DNA of 6,437 bases from a virus (Duplodnaviria; Heunggongvirae; Uroviricota; Caudoviricetes). Made by a program: the position numbers and the translations under genes. Under the pieces are notes generated by a model that did no database searches, was not told the DNA's origin, and worked only from the letters and a program-made list of their open reading frames with translations. The stretch is from IMG/VR virus record IMGVR_UViG_2617270947_000009, one strand, 5' to 3'. Below, piece by piece: positions 1 through 6,437 of this stretch. The stretch's first letter is position 1. Each line of letters starts with the position of its first letter.

Positions 1-341
1 CCCGTCGACCGTCCGGCACGGTCCATCACAGTGATAAAGGTTCTCAGTATGTATCGCTGGCCTACACACAGCGGCTTAAGGAAGCCGGATTACTGGCATC
101 AACAGGAAGTACAGGCGACTCGTATGACAACGCGATGGCGGAGAGCATCAATGGTCTTTACAAAGCGGAGGTAATACACCGTAAGAGCTGGAAAAACCGT
201 GCAGAAGTGGAACTGGCCACACTCACGTGGGTGGACTGGTATAACAATCGACGATTGCTGGAAAGGCTGGGCCATACTCCTCCGGCAGAAGCAGAAAAAG
301 CTTATTATGCTTCCATCAGAAACGATGATCTGGCAGCCTGA
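1..341 (+). CDS. IS3-family transposase OrfB (DDE integrase domain), C-terminal portion; 5'-partial at window edge
   Basis: Open frame 3-341, TGA stop at 339-341; conserved HSDKGSQY and YDNAMAESINGLYKAE motifs; the ATG at 135 in the ORF track is internal, not the true start. Confidence 0.85.
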   Translation, partial: RRPSGTVHHSDKGSQYVSLAYTQRLKEAGLLASTGSTGDSYDNAMAESINGLYKAEVIHRKSWKNRAEVELATLTWVDWYNNRRLLERLGHTPPAEAEKAYYASIRNDDLAA

Positions 342-383
342 GTTCACAGATAAAACACTCTCCAGGAAAACCGGGGCGGTTCA
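1..383 (+). mobile_element. Partial IS3-family insertion sequence (3' part of transposase gene plus terminal inverted repeat); the copy continues beyond the window start
   Basis: Frame-3 translation from nt 3 gives RRPSGTVHHSDKGSQYVSLAYTQRLKEAGLLASTGSTGDSYDNAMAESINGLYKAEVIH..., a DDE integrase-core signature (HSDxGSQY, DNAxAES..K..E) typical of IS3-family OrfB. After the TGA at 339-341 comes an approx. 42-bp terminal sequence ending ...CCGGGGCGGTTCA at 383 (outside-in: TGAACCGCCCCGG, the TGA...-type terminus of IS3-family elements). The same sequence occurs reverse-complemented at 6009-6437. Confidence 0.85.
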
Positions 384-386
384 CTG

Positions 387-2204
387 GTGGATAAATCCGG
401 CGCAGTCACAGCAGCACAGACTATTACCTCACATGGTGAAAAAAGACTCCTGACAGGTTCGGCAAAGCGGGGGGCATATCACGCCATAAACGCACAGAAA
501 CGACCTCACAGCATCATAATTGCTGAGGGGGTGGCTACCGCCCTGTCGTGCCATTTAATTCGCCCTGACGCAATGACAGTGGCAGCAATCGACGCTGGCA
601 ACCTGTTGCCAGTAGCGGAAGTCATGCGCAGAACATATCCACAGGCACAAATCATCATTGCCGCAGATAACGATCACCAGCAAGGAAACTCCGAAAGTGG
701 AGGGATCAACACGGGGAAAGATGCCGCAGAGAGGGCCGCTATTTCCGTAGCTGGCTGGGTGTCTCTGCCACCGACTGACTATAAAGCCGACTGGAACGAC
801 TATCACCAACAACACGGGCTGGCGGCAGCCACAGCAGCATTTAAAGATTCGATGTACCAGCCACGGGGGAAAGGGGCGCAGGTGAAAAATCACAAACAGT
901 CAGTCGGGGCGCTGAATGAGATCAGTTCTGGCGAGGTGTTAAGCGATGATGAAATTGCTGTCCTCGAAGAAATCAACCGGACGTTTACGCATGTCACCAT
1001 CGGCGGGAAACACAAGGGGGGGTCGCTAAAGCCTTCTCAAAACGGCGGGGTATCGCACCTTTTTGAGGGTTTATCACAATTTCAGCATTATTTTCATCAT
1101 AAACCGAGAGTCGCCAGAAAGCTGGCGGGATCGGCGTGGCTGTCATGGAGTGGGAAGAACTACAAGCCAGGAGGCGTAGGATTTTATCCAGTACCAGACA
1201 AATGCCCTGACGATGTTTTTAATCTGTATGAGGGGCTGGCACTGGAACCAATTGAAGGAGATTGCACGGTATACCTTAATCACCTGTTGCAGGTTGTCTG
1301 TGCCGGTAATGAAGAGGCATACCAATATCTTATCCAGTGGATGGCGCACATTATCCAAAAGCCTGATGAAAAACCGTCCGTGGCAATCGTGATGAAATCT
1401 GTCCCGGGCACAGGGAAAGGCACAACGGTTAAACCGCTGCTGCAAATACTGGGGCAGTACGCCGCCCACATTAACGGGGCGGGACATATTTCAGGGCGCT
1501 TCAATTCAATACTTGCTAACAAACTACTGGTATTTGCTGACGAAGTGACGATCCACAAGCCGTCTGAAGCTGACAGACTTAAAGCGATTATTAGTGAACC
1601 GACGTTTAACCTTGAGCGCAAGGGAATTGATGCTGAACCAATGCCGAATTTTGCCCGGTTGATATTTGCCAGTAACAGCACACAGGTATTACAGGCAGGG
1701 ATAAGAGAGCGTCGCTATCTCGTGCTTGAGCCATCTCCTGAAAAAGCACAGAGCCGGGAGTATTTTGATCGGCTGTACAGTTGGCTTAATGATGGCGGTG
1801 CCGCAAAGTTGCTTTGGCATCTTAAAGGGGTGGATCTCTCAGGTTTTGACCCTCAACGAGCGCCACAGACCGATGCCTTACGTGAAGAAATCTTGCTGGG
1901 GCTGTCTGGCGTTGAATTGTTTCTTTATGGCGAGCTAATCAATGAACCTCCGTTTAATGGCGAAGTCCGTTTGTTTGCAAAGGATATGGTTAGTCGGTTT
2001 GTAGCGTGGTCGCTTGAGCGTGGGGAAAAGCTTAAAGAACCAGCTGCCAGATCACTACTGGGTAAATCACTTGCACAAATGGGGCTGGTGAAGCATGGAA
2101 GACCAGACCGAGGGAATGGCGTGTTCTACGAACTACCAGAGGTCGGAGTTCTACAGGCTGCGTTTGCCCGTCTGATCGGTATGGGGGGTTATGATGTTTT
2201 TTAA
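387..2204 (+). CDS. P4 alpha-type primase/helicase, N-terminally truncated at the IS junction (likely pseudogene or remnant)
   Basis: Toprim motif AEGVATA (E codon at 525-527) and IIIAADNDHQ DxD motif (D codons 666-668 and 672-674); Walker A VPGTGKGT (approx. 1404-1424) and Walker B LLVFADE (approx. 1525-1545). The open frame begins immediately at the IS end (384), with GTG at 387 as first possible start. In P4 alpha the EGYATA motif lies about 170 residues further from the N-terminus, so about 170 aa including the zinc-binding region appear missing. Stop TAA at 2202-2204. Confidence 0.8.
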   Translation: MDKSGAVTAAQTITSHGEKRLLTGSAKRGAYHAINAQKRPHSIIIAEGVATALSCHLIRPDAMTVAAIDAGNLLPVAEVMRRTYPQAQIIIAADNDHQQGNSESGGINTGKDAAERAAISVAGWVSLPPTDYKADWNDYHQQHGLAAATAAFKDSMYQPRGKGAQVKNHKQSVGALNEISSGEVLSDDEIAVLEEINRTFTHVTIGGKHKGGSLKPSQNGGVSHLFEGLSQFQHYFHHKPRVARKLAGSAWLSWSGKNYKPGGVGFYPVPDKCPDDVFNLYEGLALEPIEGDCTVYLNHLLQVVCAGNEEAYQYLIQWMAHIIQKPDEKPSVAIVMKSVPGTGKGTTVKPLLQILGQYAAHINGAGHISGRFNSILANKLLVFADEVTIHKPSEADRLKAIISEPTFNLERKGIDAEPMPNFARLIFASNSTQVLQAGIRERRYLVLEPSPEKAQSREYFDRLYSWLNDGGAAKLLWHLKGVDLSGFDPQRAPQTDALREEILLGLSGVELFLYGELINEPPFNGEVRLFAKDMVSRFVAWSLERGEKLKEPAARSLLGKSLAQMGLVKHGRPDRGNGVFYELPEVGVLQAAFARLIGMGGYDVF

Positions 2205-2233
2205 TATAGTCTTTTTACAAGAAGATCGTTTTT

Positions 2234-2337
2234 ACCTGTACCACCTATACCACTTTGATAATTCAGCATTAAAAACAATGCGTTATAGTGGTACAGGTCA
2301 ATATCTTACCTATACCAGACCTGTACCACCTATACCA
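2234..2337. repeat. Iteron cluster downstream of primase (candidate origin): 19-bp direct repeat ACCTGTACCACCTATACCA at 2234-2252 and 2319-2337, inverted core copy GTGGTACAGGT at 2288-2298, partial copy CCTATACCAG at 2308-2317, flanking an AT-rich stretch (2254-2287)
   Basis: Repeats read directly from the sequence; the arrangement of iterons next to an AT-rich segment just 3' of a primase/helicase gene resembles P4 ori and SaPI/PICI origins. Confidence 0.6.
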
Positions 2338-2380
2338 TTAACAAACGCATTTCTTCTGGCTGGCTGAAAGGGAACAACCA

Positions 2381-2611
2381 ATGATGAGCACACCATTTTA
2401 CAAAGTGCGCCAGTTAGCTTCTTCCTCTGGCTGGCAGCTACGGTTTGAGGGGCGTTCAGACTGGCTACCCATTGCGGCATGGGCGAATGTTGAAATGTGT
2501 ATTGACGGCGATACCGTTGAAATCATTATTCCCTGCGTGGCAAGTCGGGACGGCTGTATAGAGCCAACAGATATGGCAGCAGAAATCAGAGAGGTAAAAC
2601 ATGAACAATAA
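2381..2611 (+). CDS. Hypothetical protein, 76 aa
   Basis: ATG at 2381 preceded by AAAGGG (2368-2373) at appropriate spacing; overlaps the next gene by 11 nt (translational coupling); no family recognised by eye. Confidence 0.55.
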   Translation: MMSTPFYKVRQLASSSGWQLRFEGRSDWLPIAAWANVEMCIDGDTVEIIIPCVASRDGCIEPTDMAAEIREVKHEQ

Positions 2612-3338
2612 CTATTGCATACCGCAGGGAATGACCAGAACGGAGCGCGAAGAATTAAAAAGTTTCGCTACACAGTGCGGGAATGCTGGCGACATCCAAA
2701 GTCTGGAACGCACTTTAATTATGATTACGCACTGGATGCGTCAGGGGCAAAGGGTTTCATTTACTGAATATGCCAGCCAGTGGACAGAGGCACAGCGCGA
2801 ACGGAGCGACGGTAATCACTCAACACCCGAAATGGCGAAGCAATGGCCTTTCAGTGGTAAACGCTGTATCAGTCCCGGTGGTTCAGATTATTACCCTGCT
2901 GGTGTGGGAGATGAGCCATGTTGTGACGAGACTGAAATCCGCCACGCAGTGACAGTAATTACCGCTGAATACCCACAATTTAACCTTGACGGACTGGCGC
3001 TCCACAACCGGAATGCGGACTGGGAAAACCCGCTTGATAACCCGTCATTTATCGTATCGGCGAAAAGCTGCCTGAGATGGATCAGAGACAACGGGATGAG
3101 TAATGCCCAGATTGAGAGCTTCCCGCAGGATAACCCCACATCTGACACGTTGAAGCATGAAGTGGAGCGATATAACCAGATAAACCACCAGCACAGTGAT
3201 CACCCGCACTATATCCCCAACGGAGCATTTATTGCGGCGATGGTGGCAAGCGGCTACAAGGTTAAGCCAGCGGGAAGAATGAACGCATTTTTCAATATTT
3301 CAAAAAAGGGATTATGTGCTGCTATGGGTAAAAATTAA
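2601..3338 (+). CDS. Hypothetical protein, 245 aa
   Basis: ATG at 2601 preceded by GAGAGG (2588-2593); open frame to TAA at 3336-3338; ORF of this length in the same orientation as neighbours; no recognisable catalytic motif. Confidence 0.6.
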   Translation: MNNNYCIPQGMTRTEREELKSFATQCGNAGDIQSLERTLIMITHWMRQGQRVSFTEYASQWTEAQRERSDGNHSTPEMAKQWPFSGKRCISPGGSDYYPAGVGDEPCCDETEIRHAVTVITAEYPQFNLDGLALHNRNADWENPLDNPSFIVSAKSCLRWIRDNGMSNAQIESFPQDNPTSDTLKHEVERYNQINHQHSDHPHYIPNGAFIAAMVASGYKVKPAGRMNAFFNISKKGLCAAMGKN

Positions 3339-3343
3339 ATAAA

Positions 3344-3447
3344 TGGTACAGGTCTGTACAGGTGGGGAGAGGTCATTTTTACCCACCTGTACCACCTGCA
3401 GGCCGCGTCACAAAAGGGTTTGTGACATGGTGGTACAGGTGGTACAG
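3344..3447. repeat. Second iteron cluster with the same core (CCTGTACCACC / GGTGGTACAGG): GGTACAGGT 3345-3353, TGTACAGGTGG 3355-3365, CACCTGTACCACCTG 3384-3398, GGTGGTACAGGTGGTACAG 3429-3447; the last two form an inverted repeat around the palindrome at 3407-3426
   Basis: Read directly from the sequence; same core motif as the 2234-2337 cluster, present in both orientations. Confidence 0.6.
3407..3426. promoter_or_regulatory. Perfect palindrome GTCACAAA-AGGG-TTTGTGAC (8-bp arms, 4-nt spacer) nested between inverted iterons; candidate protein-binding site
   Basis: Exact reverse-complement arms at 3407-3414 and 3419-3426; not followed by a T-run, so unlikely to be a terminator. Confidence 0.4.
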
Positions 3448-3611
3448 CAAAAACAGCGATTTTCTTTATAAGGTTTTATAAGGTATGTTTTGCTCATCTG
3501 GCAGACGGAGGTATTCGCTGCGGTTTGGCACATAGCCCAGAACAGCAAAGAGTTTTACGAGACTTTTGTAAAATCCAGTGTACAAGGGCGTGACGTTTTT
3601 GAAGGAGGGAC

Positions 3612-3628
3612 CTACGAAATTTTCGTAG
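3612..3628. promoter_or_regulatory. 17-bp perfect palindrome CTACGAAA-T-TTTCGTAG; candidate operator
   Basis: Arms 3612-3619 and 3621-3628 are exact reverse complements; AT-rich centre; preceded by a GAAGGAGGG stretch (3601-3609) with no start codon following. Confidence 0.35.
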
Positions 3629-3822
3629 TTCAAAAAATAGCCTCTGAGATGTTGTTATGCCTGTTCAGCAAACCATCCGCATAGCTGATCGCGAATCAAA
3701 TTACCAATGGAGCCAGAAGCAAGGGCAGAACTGGAAAGCGCCTGCCGTGAAGAGTAATGCGACATCGTAAATATAGTTTTTAGAGTCCATAAAAAAACTG
3801 TCAAAACCTGACATACAGAACG

Positions 3823-3855
3823 ATGCCACCAGCTACTGAACGGTGGCATTTTTTT
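3823..3855 (+). terminator. Rho-independent terminator (8-bp GC-rich stem ATGCCACC/GGTGGCAT, 11-nt loop, run of 7 T)
   Basis: Stem 3823-3830 pairs with 3842-3849; T-run 3849-3855; orientation fits + strand transcription only. Confidence 0.6.
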
Positions 3856-3874
3856 GTGCTATTTGTTTCATATT

Positions 3875-3917
3875 TTGCAATCACAATGATGAATGTTGCG
3901 TTTTATGAAACTATAAT
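3875..3917 (+). promoter_or_regulatory. Putative promoter for the downstream operon: consensus -10 TATAAT at 3912-3917; no good -35 at 16-18 bp spacing (TTGCAA at 3875-3880 is 31 bp upstream)
   Basis: Perfect -10 hexamer 34 nt upstream of the 3951 start codon and downstream of the terminator; the lack of a -35 suggests activator dependence or a misplaced call. Confidence 0.35.
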
Positions 3918-3950
3918 GACTGTTGTTTTATACAGTTCTAAGGGGGCGTT

Positions 3951-4124
3951 ATGGCTATTTCAGTAAAGCCAGTATTGATAAGTGAGAAGCAAATGGAAGC
4001 GATAAAGAAAATTCAGGAGGAGCAGCGTAAAAAATCAGAGGTAGGAGTTGCGCCAACGATCCACGAAATTGCTCGGGGATTAATGGATAAGGCGCTGGCT
4101 TACACTTTAACTGGACGTGGGTAA
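3951..4124 (+). CDS. Small hypothetical protein, 57 aa (MAISVKPVLISEKQMEAIKKIQEEQRKKSEVGVAPTIHEIARGLMDKALAYTLTGRG); possible small DNA-binding (ribbon-helix-helix-like) protein; absent from the supplied ORF track
   Basis: ATG at 3951 preceded by a strong Shine-Dalgarno AAGGGGG (3940-3946); stop TAA at 4122-4124, 4 nt before the ATG of the next gene; predicted strand-helix-turn-helix layout is inferred by eye only. Confidence 0.55.
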   Translation: MAISVKPVLISEKQMEAIKKIQEEQRKKSEVGVAPTIHEIARGLMDKALAYTLTGRG

Positions 4125-4128
4125 ATCA

Positions 4129-5595
4129 ATGGCTACGTGGCAACAGGGTATTAATTCTGGTGGTTTTCTGGCTGGCATCGGTACGCAAAATGAGAATGCG
4201 CCAAAGGCAAGCGACATTAACGCAACGCTTGGTCTGATCCGCGAAAACAATGAACTGGCTCGATCAGGTGCAAATAACGTTGCTCTGACAGGTCTTCGTG
4301 GTCTGGCTGGAGTTGCTGATATTTATAAGCAGCAGCAACAGCAGGAGCGTAAAGCGGCATTCCAGAAAGGTTATGCAGATGCTTATGCGTCCGGTGACAG
4401 GGAGCAGATGCGTAATCTTATTACAGCATTCCCAGAAGAGTTTGAGGAAGTCCGTAAAGGGATGAGTTATGTCGATGATGCTCAAAGGGATGATTATGGC
4501 AATCTGGCGCTCAAAGCACAGGTAGCCTCATCGCTTGGTCAGGGCGCATTTGGCAGGTTCATGATGGATAATGAGCAGGAGATGCGTCGTTTAGGTATCC
4601 CTCCAGAAACTATTGCTGAAATGCAGGTTAATGACCCGCAGGGCTTCCAGCATTTCGCAGGTAATCTGGCGCTGTTTTCTCTCGGTCATGAGAAGTATTT
4701 CGATATCAAAGATCAAATGGAAGGTCGGGATATTGAACGTGGCAAGTTGGCAGAGACAATCCGCAGCAATCAGGCCAGCGAAGCACTTCAGGCGAGAGGG
4801 CAGGATATTAGCCGAGCAAATGCGTTAACGTCAGCATATGCACCAACAGCAGCAATGCAGAATTACAATCAGTACGCTCAAATGTTAAAGGCGGATCCAG
4901 AGGGGGCGGCGGCATTTGCGGCAGCGGCTGGAATTAATACAAACGCCAAAAAATTAATGAGTGTTAGAGAAAACGATGATGGCACTGTCACAAAATACTA
5001 CACAGACGGAAGTGAAGAGCAGGGAAAACTAAACCAGCCAATATCTGGAGATGGGTTTCGTCCAATAGCTTTGCCAACAGCCCAAAAGATCATGGAAAAG
5101 TCGCCAGAAGGGGCTAAAAAAGCTGCTGGATTTGCATACAGAGTTAGGGATGCTCTTGATTCAATGGATACACTGAAAGGCCAGCTTAGCCCACAGCGAG
5201 TGGCGATCATTAATAATGCTTTGGGTAATGGGACGCTGGCTAACTTAACGCTCACCCCAACAGAGCAGCAATACGTTGTTAATGCTAATGACGCAATAAT
5301 GGCAATACTCCGTCAGGAAACAGGGGCAGCTATCGTACCTGCTGAAATGTCAAAATATTATCAAATGTATTTCCCTCAGCCTGGCGACTCCACAAAAACC
5401 ATTGATACCAAGCGCCGGAAGATGGAAAACCAGTTCAATTCGCTGAAAGCTGCTTCTGGTCGAGCTTATGATGCTTTGCGGGTTATTTCAGCAGTTGACA
5501 GAGGGACTTCTTCTTCGTCGCAGACATTGCCGCAATCTGAGCAGGTATCACAGCCAGCAGCCAGCAGTAATTTTTCTTCACTATGGGGTGATTAA
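4129..5595 (+). CDS. Hypothetical protein, about 488 aa (492 aa if the GTG at 4117 is used); Ala/Gln/Gly-rich, low complexity with a QQQQQ run, no catalytic motif recognised
   Basis: Long uninterrupted frame; ATG at 4129 closely follows the upstream stop; stop TAA at 5593-5595 overlaps the next start (TAATG); the composition is the kind seen in phage scaffold, ejection or tape-measure-like proteins, but the family is not identified. Confidence 0.65.
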   Translation: MATWQQGINSGGFLAGIGTQNENAPKASDINATLGLIRENNELARSGANNVALTGLRGLAGVADIYKQQQQQERKAAFQKGYADAYASGDREQMRNLITAFPEEFEEVRKGMSYVDDAQRDDYGNLALKAQVASSLGQGAFGRFMMDNEQEMRRLGIPPETIAEMQVNDPQGFQHFAGNLALFSLGHEKYFDIKDQMEGRDIERGKLAETIRSNQASEALQARGQDISRANALTSAYAPTAAMQNYNQYAQMLKADPEGAAAFAAAAGINTNAKKLMSVRENDDGTVTKYYTDGSEEQGKLNQPISGDGFRPIALPTAQKIMEKSPEGAKKAAGFAYRVRDALDSMDTLKGQLSPQRVAIINNALGNGTLANLTLTPTEQQYVVNANDAIMAILRQETGAAIVPAEMSKYYQMYFPQPGDSTKTIDTKRRKMENQFNSLKAASGRAYDALRVISAVDRGTSSSSQTLPQSEQVSQPAASSNFSSLWGD

Positions 5596-6011
5596 TGGCT
5601 AAAGCATGGAAAGATGTTATCGCCTCTCCACAGTATCAGGCGTTAGCACCAGAACAAAAAGCGCAGGCTCAGGAGCAATACTTCAATGAAGTCGTGGCCC
5701 CGCAAGCCGGAGAAAGTGTAGCGCAGGCTAAGCAGGCTTTTTATGCTGCCTATCCACTACCATCAACGAATGAAATAGACCGATCCCAATCAGCAACTCA
5801 AAATATTCAACATACATCATCTGATAATTCTCTTGCGTCAGGGTATGCAAAGTTAGCGACTCAGCAAAGAGAGGGGCTTGAGCGTTCAGCAGAACAGGGA
5901 GCCAGTCTTGGGGCTGCGATGCGCGATGCTATAACAGGCGAAAGCCGAATGACTCCAGAGATGGAGAGACTGCAAAATGTCGACCTTGCCCCAGAGTTAA
6001 CCTCACTCTGA
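5595..6011 (+). CDS. Hypothetical protein, 138 aa as it stands; probably C-terminally truncated, because the stop codon TGA (6009-6011) is the first three bases of the IS terminus
   Basis: ATG at 5595 overlaps the preceding stop (translational coupling); the last native codon ends at 6008 and the IS end TGAACCGCCCCGG begins at 6009. Confidence 0.55.
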   Translation: MAKAWKDVIASPQYQALAPEQKAQAQEQYFNEVVAPQAGESVAQAKQAFYAAYPLPSTNEIDRSQSATQNIQHTSSDNSLASGYAKLATQQREGLERSAEQGASLGAAMRDAITGESRMTPEMERLQNVDLAPELTSL

Positions 6012-6437
6012 ACCGCCCCGGGTTTCCTGGAGAGTGTTTTATCTGTGAACTCAGGCTGCCAGATCATCGTTTCCGATGGAAGCATAATAAGCTTTTTCTG
6101 CTTCTGCCGGAGGAGTATGGCCCAGCCTTTCCAGCAATCGTCGATTGTTATACCAGTCCACCCACGTGAGTGTGGCCAGTTCCACTTCTGCACGGTTTTT
6201 CCAGCTCTTACGGTGTATTACCTCCGCTTTGTAAAGACCATTGATGCTCTCCGCCATCGCGTTGTCATACGAGTCGCCTGTACTTCCTGTTGATGCCAGT
6301 AATCCGGCTTCCTTAAGCCGCTGTGTGTAGGCCAGCGATACATACTGAGAACCTTTATCACTGTGATGGACCGTGCCGGACGGTCGACGGGCCCATAACG
6401 CCTGCTCCAGTGCATCCAGCACGAATGTCGTTTCCAT
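6009..6437 (-). mobile_element. Partial IS3-family insertion sequence, second copy in inverted orientation (terminal repeat plus 3' part of transposase gene); continues beyond the window end
   Basis: 6009-6391 is the reverse complement of 1-383, with two mismatches found by eye (6022 and 6074); terminal sequence TGAACCGCCCCGGGTTTCCTGG at 6009-6030. Confidence 0.85.
6051..6437 (-). CDS. IS3-family transposase OrfB (DDE integrase domain), C-terminal portion; 5'-partial at window edge
   Basis: Translation ...RRPSGTVHHSDKGSQYVSLAYTQRLKEAGLLASTGSTGDSYDNAMAESINGLYKAEVIH...ASIGNDDLAA matches the copy at 1-341 except one residue (G vs R); stop (TCA on + strand) at 6051-6053. Confidence 0.85.
   Translation of the reverse strand: METTFVLDALEQALWARRPSGTVHHSDKGSQYVSLAYTQRLKEAGLLASTGSTGDSYDNAMAESINGLYKAEVIHRKSWKNRAEVELATLTWVDWYNNRRLLERLGHTPPAEAEKAYYASIGNDDLAA

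What the first reader, a model, noticed from the sequence alone, without database searches (positions are those of the whole stretch)
1..6437. Two inverted, near-identical IS3-family ends bracket the 5.6-kb segment, both facing inward
Nt 1-383 and 6009-6391 are reverse complements of each other, with two mismatches found by eye (318/6074 and 370/6022). Each shows the 3' end of the transposase gene plus the same terminal repeat pointing into the central segment. This is either a composite-transposon-like unit carrying a satellite-element fragment, or the footprint of IS-mediated inversion or deletion inside a P4-like island. The mismatches argue against a very recent duplication of a single copy.
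Basis: seen in the sequence. Interest (0 to 1): 0.55.

Follow-up and report, generated by a model that had tools for sequence, protein, structure and literature searches.

The report
Two IS629 copies inserted in an island
The window is a whole short-read contig from a commensal E. coli in which two separate copies of the common insertion sequence IS629 landed, at different times, inside two genes of a phage-satellite-like island; this is ordinary gene decay, not a new mobile unit.

Summary
Nt 1-383 and 6009-6391 are reverse complements, with mismatches at exactly 318/6074 and 370/6022. The element is a 1310-bp IS3-family IS629 isoform, and both IRR ends face the 5.6-kb core.

The window is an entire Illumina/MaSuRCA contig of E. 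coli 1-110-08_S3_C2, so the repeat stops at nt 1 only because the contig ends inside the IS.

The core is collinear with an intact ~18-kb integrase/AlpA/Ash/primase/P22-gp20/gp16 island found in 51 complete E. coli genomes. The left IS splits the primase-helicase gene. Its outer junction lies on another contig of the same assembly and shows a 4-bp target duplication, CTGG.

The right IS truncates the gp16-like gene at codon 138. This identical junction occurs in many other samples, including one whose primase is intact and whose island is otherwise identical. In another sample its outer junction shows a 3-bp duplication, CTC.

The two IS alleles differ, and each is common across E. coli. The best reading is two independent, sequential in-situ insertions. 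There is no sign of movement as a composite transposon. A later inversion or a right-flank deletion cannot be excluded from short-read contigs. The result is ordinary and of low interest.

The parts
1..383 (+). Last 383 nt (IS positions 928-1310) of the left IS629-isoform copy. It holds the orfB 3' part (3-341, stop included) and the right terminal inverted repeat (about 359-383, ending GGTTCA). It carries allele-specific bases 318A and 370A; 370 is IRR position 14.
   Evidence: The complete 1310-bp copy is seen in sister contigs L004/L005. The allele is exact in 954 records.
384..387 (.). Inner copy of the 4-bp target-site duplication CTGG made by the left IS. The outer copy precedes IRL on contig JHDM01000077.1 (L023 10532-10535).
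   Evidence: The intact island has a single CTGG here (L001/L003). The outer junction reads ...GCTGGCGCTGG|TGAACCGCC. The predicted 187-aa read-through product was found exactly in the three sister assemblies.
384..2204 (+). 3' fragment (codons 178-783) of the island's primase-helicase gene (Toprim_3 + DUF5906), cut off from its Zn-ribbon N-terminal part by the left IS.
   Evidence: The intact 783-aa gene is present in L001-L003 and L006.
2381..3338 (+). Two island genes of unknown function (76 aa at 2381-2611, 245 aa at 2601-3338), bracketed by ACCTGTACC/GGTACAGGT repeat clusters at 2230-2340 and 3339-3453.
   Evidence: no Pfam hit. The same genes are annotated in intact islands.
3951..4124 (+). 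57-aa island gene preceding the ejection-protein genes.
4129..5595 (+). Intact P22 gp20-like ejection protein gene (Inj_translocase, 488 aa).
   Evidence: PF16928, 279 bits; about 51% identity to APSE phage gp20
5595..6011 (+). 5' fragment (138 codons) of the P22 gp16-like ejection protein gene. The reading frame is closed by TGA, the first three bases of the right IS (6009-6011).
   Evidence: The intact gene encodes 701 aa (PF26808 in L013). The exact 138-aa product is indexed in 37 blocks of the collection.
6006..6008 (.). Inner copy of the 3-bp target-site duplication CTC made by the right IS. The outer copy is seen in sample ERZ27268539, contig L025.
   Evidence: The intact island reads ...CCTCACTC|AGCATGG. 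L025 reads ...GGGGCGGTTCA|CTC|AGCATGG. The inner junction from the same sample is on L012.
6009..6437 (-). Last 429 nt (IS positions 882-1310) of the right IS629-isoform copy, inverted. It holds IRR (6009-6033) and the orfB 3' part (6051-6437 on the - strand). The contig ends inside the IS.
   Evidence: (100% matches in many genomes)

Best explanation
Two copies of an IS629 isoform (IS3 family, 1310 bp) inserted separately and in place into an integrated, phage-satellite-like island next to yicC in E. coli 1-110-08_S3. The older insertion hit the P22-gp16-like ejection protein gene after codon 138 (3-bp duplication CTC, IS inverted). It is shared by many E. coli lineages. The younger insertion hit the primase-helicase gene after codon 178 (4-bp duplication CTGG, IS forward). 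It is seen only in this strain, in three colonies from one stool sample, and came from a different IS629 allele. Because both are multi-copy repeats, the 100-bp-read MaSuRCA assembly broke inside them. That left the 5.6-kb stretch between them as a separate contig with inverted IS ends. The biological effect is inactivation of the island's replication gene and one ejection-protein gene. Shown here: both inner junctions, the left outer junction with its duplication in the same assembly, the right outer junction with its duplication in another sample, and the strain that has the right IS only. Inferred: that the right IS is complete, and that the island continues normally to its right in this strain.
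For: The window equals the whole contig JHDM01000006.1 of GCA_000601175.1, from E. coli 1-110-08_S3_C2. Strain names of this form belong to a study that used Illumina HiSeq 100-bp reads and MaSuRCA (PMC6222053). IS identity: 1310 bp; TG...CA ends; 25-bp IRs; orfA, with orfB in the -1 frame overlapping at an A6 run; rve domain; NF033516 at 314.6 bits against a cutoff of 160; and 97.4-98.0% identity over full length to copies annotated IS629 in Stx phages. The core 384-6008 is collinear at 98.3-99.4% with intact islands in 51 complete genomes. The left outer junction, with the CTGG duplication and the island's left half next to yicC, lies on JHDM01000077.1 of the same assembly. It was predicted in advance as a 187-aa read-through protein and then found exactly. 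That island half is 100% identical to L003, whose primase is intact but which has the identical right junction. The right junction is identical in 10 of 10 contigs examined, and the product is indexed in 37 blocks. The right outer junction with the CTC duplication lies in ERZ27268539, the same sample as inner-junction contig L012. IS629 is reported to make 3-4-bp duplications and to sit mostly in prophage-like elements (PMC3271280). The IS alleles differ, and each is widespread.
Against: The right outer junction was not found in the source strain itself: six guessed products were absent from the collection. A later deletion to the right of that IS therefore remains possible. The orientation of the core relative to the rest of the island cannot be read from short-read contigs. 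The IS tail of JHDM01000077.1 differs at 3 positions from the left IS in L004, and one of these (1094T) matches neither copy over the part where both are known. So IS-internal SNPs in these assemblies are mixed among copies and cannot link contigs. No complete genome carries either junction.
Confidence: 0.85

Rival explanations
1. After both insertions, homologous recombination between the two inverted IS copies flipped the 5.6-kb core, either fixed or as a mixed population. The island now reads primase-5' / IS / inverted core / IS / gp16-3'.
For: Inverted repeats of 1.3 kb at more than 99% identity over the known 451 nt are good recombination substrates. All junction sequences found would be the same in either orientation, so nothing excludes it. 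JHDM01000077.1's IS tail is not identical to the left IS of L004.
Against: It needs a third event with no positive evidence. At IS position 887, the only copy-discriminating site covered, JHDM01000077.1 carries the left-type base, as expected without inversion. That support is weak, because the tail is visibly mixed.
Confidence: 0.08
2. The IS-core-IS structure is a functional composite transposon that arrived, or can move, as a unit carrying the primase 3' part and the ejection-protein genes.
For: The architecture resembles inverted-IS composite transposons. From memory, not checked here: the IS629 isoform IS3411 flanks the citrate transposon Tn3411.
Against: Each IS has its own duplication (CTGG at both flanks of the left IS; CTC for the right IS) rather than one shared duplication at the outer ends. 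The cargo is the native, collinear continuation of the surrounding island. An intermediate with only the right IS exists (L003). The left junction occurs in one strain only, and neither junction occurs in 5,426 complete genomes. Both outer ends are IRL, whereas IS3-family copy-out normally joins an IRL to an IRR (established knowledge, not tested here).
Confidence: 0.02
3. In the source strain the right IS has caused an adjacent deletion, so the gp16-like 3' part and perhaps the rest of the island are gone. This reading can coexist with the main explanation.
For: No contig of the source assemblies with the gp16-like 3' part was recovered. The 562-aa product is on record only from other samples, and the guessed variants are absent. 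IS629-associated deletions are well known in EHEC (PMC9943667 abstract).
Against: Absence of an exact-match protein is weak evidence, because the allele or the called start may differ. The original insertion was simple, with a CTC duplication, in ERZ27268539.
Confidence: 0.1
4. Assembly artefact: one IS copy on a circularly permuted or chimeric contig.
For: The window is a small contig that ends in repeats.
Against: The ends are inverted rather than direct. Two different unique sequences abut the same IRR end. The copies differ at 3 positions, reproduced in three independent assemblies. The right junction is found independently in many other samples.
Confidence: 0.01

Closest known systems
IS629 and its isoforms IS1203 and IS3411 (IS3 family), as described in E. 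coli O157:H7, other EHEC and Shigella
   Same: Length of 1310 bp. TGAACCGCCCCGGG... terminal repeats. orfA and orfB in frames 0 and -1, with an rve-domain transposase. 97.4-98.0% nucleotide identity to copies annotated IS629. 3- and 4-bp target duplications and a preference for prophage-like elements, as reported in PMC3271280.
   Different: Nothing essential differs. The left copy carries a G-to-T change at IRR position 14 (window 370), which is itself a common allele. The two insertion sites, in the primase-helicase and gp16-like genes of this island, are not present in any of 5,426 complete genomes.
Composite transposons bounded by inverted IS copies (Tn10/Tn5 type; Tn3411 for this IS group)
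   Same: Two near-identical IS copies in inverted orientation bracket a unique segment.
   Different: Each IS has its own duplication. The cargo is native to the locus. A single-IS intermediate exists. There is no second location. It resembles a composite transposon only in layout.
P4-like phage satellites / phage-inducible islands (the host element)
   Same: Tyrosine integrase next to a conserved chromosomal site (yicC or tRNA-Thr), AlpA-type regulator, Ash-family protein, and a Zn-ribbon/Toprim/helicase primase.
   Different: No sid, psu or delta genes are annotated. Instead the island carries P22-type ejection protein genes gp20 and gp16, and some variants also carry gp7. The TIGR01613 P4-family primase hit is far below its cutoff (21 against 108.7 bits).

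Membership tests
IS3 family, IS629 isoform | Element length of about 1.2-1.55 kb (IS629: 1310 bp) | tested here: met
   The complete left copy in sister contigs L004/L005 is 1310 bp from TGAACC... to ...GGTTCA.
IS3 family, IS629 isoform | Imperfect terminal inverted repeats ending 5'-TG...CA-3' | tested here: met
   IRL and IRR align over 25 bp with 21 matches (left copy) or 22 matches (right copy), and the ends are TG/CA.
IS3 family, IS629 isoform | Two overlapping ORFs, with orfB in the -1 frame relative to orfA and an A-rich slippery run at the overlap | tested here: met
   orfA lies at 55-381 and orfB starts at 381 in the -1 frame. The sequence GGAAAAAATAATG spans the overlap. The frameshift itself cannot be tested in silico.
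IS3 family, IS629 isoform | DDE (rve) transposase matching the IS3-family model | tested here: met
   Pfam rve, HTH_21 and rve_3. NCBIfam NF033516 scores 314.6 bits against a cutoff of 160.
IS3 family, IS629 isoform | Target-site duplication of 3-4 bp | tested here: met
   CTGG flanks the left IS within the same assembly. CTC flanks the right IS in sample ERZ27268539. The literature value is 3-4 bp (PMC3271280).
IS3 family, IS629 isoform | More than 95% nucleotide identity to the reference IS629. This isoform threshold is the ISfinder convention as I recall it; it was not checked here. | tested here: inconclusive
   97.4-98.0% identity over 1310 bp to copies annotated IS629 in Stx phages.
Composite transposon | Two IS copies bracket the cargo | tested here: met
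Composite transposon | One target-site duplication shared by the two outer ends of the whole unit | tested here: not met
   The outer-left flank ends in CTGG, which matches the inner flank of the same IS. The right IS has CTC on both sides. The outer-right flank was seen only in another sample.
Composite transposon | The unit is found in a second genomic context, or the cargo is foreign to its surroundings | tested here: not met
   The cargo is collinear with the intact island. The flank on JHDM01000077.1 is the island's own left half. A single-IS intermediate exists, L003. Neither junction occurs in complete genomes.
IS-mediated inversion | Linkage of the primase 5' part to the gp16-like 5' part through one IS copy (duplication halves exchanged between copies) | not testable with these tools
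   All contigs end inside the IS, and the IS-internal SNPs are mixed among copies. Long reads or PCR are needed.
P4-like satellite (host island) | Integrase, AlpA and a primase-helicase (alpha-like) | tested here: met
   Annotations and precomputed Pfam hits for intact islands.
P4-like satellite (host island) | The sid, psu and delta capsid-size and decoration genes | tested here: inconclusive
   None is annotated and none has a Pfam hit in the intact islands. No dedicated remote-homology search was run.

The most novel reading that the evidence does not exclude
The two inverted IS629 copies turn the 5.6-kb core into an invertible or mobilisable cassette. IS-IS recombination, or IRL-IRL transposition, could flip or move the truncated primase-helicase and the P22-type ejection-protein genes. 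Read-through from the left IS could express an N-terminally truncated Toprim-helicase with some new role.
Probability: 0.04. Interest if true: 0.3.

Novelty: already known. Interest (0 to 1): 0.08.

Why it matters
It matters little beyond bookkeeping. It shows that a contig with inverted IS ends in a short-read assembly is simply the unique stretch between two repeat copies, not a mobile unit. It also documents stepwise IS629-driven decay of a widespread E. coli satellite-like island: first an ejection-protein gene was hit, then the replication gene. The two insertions can serve as lineage markers. The shared gp16-site insertion marks a broader clade, and the primase insertion marks this Tanzanian child's strain.

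Tried and rejected
1. I searched both 120-nt junctions against 5,426 complete E. coli genomes and found none. Outer flanks therefore had to come from draft contigs.

2. I searched papers for the WGS prefixes JHDM, JHDN and JHDL. The results were nil or swamped by histone-demethylase papers. The strain was instead identified from protein names.

3. A homology search with the primase N-terminal 178 aa returned only cluster representatives. P0004 turned out to be contig-end partials and P0003 a frameshift variant; neither is the junction. The junction was then found by exact look-up of predicted read-through products.

4. A homology search with the gp16-like C-terminal part gave two candidates. 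P0062 is a contig-start partial of another allele. P0172 is a split pseudogene in other strains.

5. Six guessed products for the right outer junction in the source strain were absent from the collection.

6. I tried to link contigs through IS-internal SNPs and rejected the approach. JHDM01000077.1's IS tail carries a base (1094T) found in neither copy, so repeat tails in these assemblies are consensus mixtures.

7. I looked for literature on satellites that carry P22 ejection proteins and found nothing relevant.
Full report
**Observation.** The repeat finder reports arms 1-383 and 6009-6391, 383 nt, 99% complementary. Complementarity ends sharply at 383/384 and 6008/6009. Each arm holds the 3' part of an rve-domain transposase ORF, at 3-341 on + and 6051-6437 on -. 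Each is followed by the same terminal repeat ending ...GGTTCA, so the same end (IRR) of both copies faces the core.

**What the window is.** An exact-protein look-up of the 138-aa ORF that runs into the right IS showed that the window is the entire 6437-bp contig JHDM01000006.1 of assembly GCA_000601175.1. The strain is E. coli 1-110-08_S3_C2. Names of this form belong to a study of Tanzanian children's E. coli, sequenced with 100-bp Illumina reads and assembled with MaSuRCA (PMC6222053).

Two sister colonies from the same stool sample, C1 and C3, have equivalent contigs L004 and L005. These contain the complete left IS and begin exactly at its first base. So the left arm stops at nt 1 only because the assembler stopped inside a repeat. 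Both mismatches recur in the sister assemblies. A third difference between the copies appears at IS position 887, giving 3 differences in 451 nt.

**The IS.**
- The complete copy is 1310 bp with TG...CA ends.
- It has 25-bp imperfect terminal repeats.
- orfA lies at 55-381, and orfB starts at 381 in the -1 frame, overlapping orfA at an A6 run.
- OrfB has HTH_21, rve and rve_3 domains and scores 314.6 bits on NCBIfam NF033516, 'IS3 family transposase', against a cutoff of 160.
- It is 97.4-98.0% identical over its full length to copies annotated IS629 in Stx phages.
- IS1203 and IS3411 are regarded as IS629 isoforms, subtypes differ by 4-5%, the element makes 3-4-bp duplications, and 62% of copies in O157 lie in prophage-like elements (PMC3271280).
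- Related sequence occurs in 4147 of 5426 complete E. coli genomes, with a median of 3 places per genome.

**The core.** Nt 384-6008 match 51 complete E. coli genomes over at least 80% of their length. The listed best hits match collinearly at 98.3-99.4%. There the core forms the middle of an island of about 18 kb integrated next to yicC or tRNA-Thr. Its gene order is integrase, AlpA-type HTH, AntA, DUF4222, Ash, small genes, a 783-aa Zn-ribbon/Toprim/DUF5906 primase-helicase, small genes, a P22 gp20-like protein (488 aa), a P22 gp16-like protein (701 aa), more genes, and PerC.

In the window the primase-helicase gene begins at codon 178, directly after the left IS. The gp16-like gene ends after codon 138, with its stop codon supplied by the first three bases of the right IS. 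No complete genome has either junction.

**The right junction is older and shared.** The exact 138-aa truncated product is indexed in 37 blocks of the collection, and the junction sequence is identical in all 10 contigs inspected. One of them is L003 (ENA ERZ1743135, a 63.7-kb contig). Its core differs from the sister contigs at only 2-4 positions, and its left island half is 100% identical to that of the source strain. Its primase gene, however, is intact. This is the state before the left insertion.

**Outer flanks.** I predicted what a simple insertion of the left IS would leave behind: primase codons 1-178 reading into IRL. That gives a 178-aa product with a 3-bp duplication, or a 187-aa product ending VNRPGNPGD with a 4-bp duplication. 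The 187-aa product with the L003 allele exists exactly, and the only three accessions recorded for it are from E. coli 1-110-08_S3 colonies.

Its contig in the same assembly as the window is JHDM01000077.1 (59 kb). It reads dut-slmA-pyrE-rph-yicC-integrase-...-primase 5' part-CTGG|TGAACCGCC (IRL)-orfA-orfB, and then ends inside the IS. The intact sequence has one CTGG here, and the window starts its core with CTGG. The left IS is therefore a simple forward insertion with a 4-bp duplication in an island in its normal chromosomal setting.

For the right IS, the predicted 562-aa C-terminal product is on record. In sample ERZ27268539 its contig reads IRL(reverse)...GGTTCA|CTC|AGCATGG, and that sample also has the inner junction on L012. 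The intact sequence is ...CACTC|AGCATGG. This is a simple insertion with a 3-bp duplication. I did not find this outer junction in the source strain itself.

**Are the copies related?** The left-type allele (318A with 370A) is exact in 954 records, and the right-type allele is exact in many genomes. In ERZ27268539 the IRL-proximal 139 nt of the right IS differ from the left IS at 5 positions. The two copies thus come from different circulating IS629 alleles.

**Interpretation.** The best-supported history is two independent, sequential insertions in place (confidence 0.85).

The composite-transposon reading fails its defining tests. Each IS has its own duplication. The cargo is the native continuation of the surrounding island. 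A single-IS intermediate exists. No second location is known.

A single-IS or mis-assembly artefact is excluded by the inverted orientation, by two different junctions with the same IS end, and by reproducible differences between the copies.

Two things remain open. First, the core could since have flipped by recombination between the inverted copies. All junctions would look the same, and IS-internal SNPs in these assemblies are mixtures: JHDM01000077.1 carries 1094T, which matches neither copy. Second, the island to the right of the right IS might have been deleted in this strain. Both need long reads, PCR or read mapping.

**Consequence and novelty.** The insertions separate the primase's Zn-ribbon domain from its Toprim-helicase part and remove 80% of the gp16-like protein, so the island is decaying. 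IS629 insertions in prophage-like elements are textbook material. The finding is correct as an observation but ordinary, and part of its appearance comes from contig breakage at repeats. Interest is scored at 0.08.

Noticed in passing
window 2230-2340 and 3339-3453: Two clusters of short ACCTGTACC(ACC) / GGTACAGGT(GG) repeats, direct and inverted, bracket the two small genes just downstream of the primase-helicase gene (D2, D14, I2-I4, I8, I12-I14). They look like iterons, possibly the island's replication origin.
   Followed up: no
window 1018-1151: Seven substitutions relative to L003. Five of them lie within 28 bp (1042-1069) and are private to this contig among the three sister colonies. 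They are likely assembly noise or reads from a paralogous island rather than real mutations. The ORF stays open.
   Followed up: partly
L026 1-90 (GCA_015620415.1, JACXJR010000082.1): In another E. coli a different element abuts the gp16-like gene 4 bp upstream of the IS629 site. Its end reads ...GGGGATCTCTCAG, which I recognise from memory as an IS10-type end. This may point to an insertion-prone spot.
   Followed up: no
L010 (ENA ERZ23880386, 5.6-kb contig, 3.4x coverage): The same gp20-like / truncated gp16-like / IRR junction is joined upstream to genuine P22-like virion genes (Phage_stabilise, DUF2824, P22_gp7) instead of the island's primase. It is either a prophage-island recombinant or a metagenome chimera across the shared 1.9 kb.
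   Followed up: no
window 384-6008; L001 1152-18608; L013; L028: The host island combines a P4-type regulation and replication set (integrase, AlpA, AntA, Ash, primase-helicase) with P22-type ejection protein genes gp20 and gp16; some variants also carry gp14-like and gp7 genes. No capsid or sid/psu genes are annotated. At least part of the core matches in 1539 of 5426 complete E. coli genomes. I found no paper describing it. It may deserve its own look as a satellite that supplies its own ejection proteins.
   Followed up: partly
window 370 (IRR position 14 of the left IS): The left copy has G-to-T inside its right terminal repeat, reducing the IRL/IRR match from 22 to 21 of 25. The allele is common (954 records), so it is presumably still active.
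   Followed up: partly
window 3821-3856: A GC-rich hairpin followed by a T run (GATGCCACC...GGTGGCATTTTTTTG) in the 600-nt gap before the ejection-protein genes. It looks like an intrinsic terminator. It was seen by eye only.
   Followed up: no
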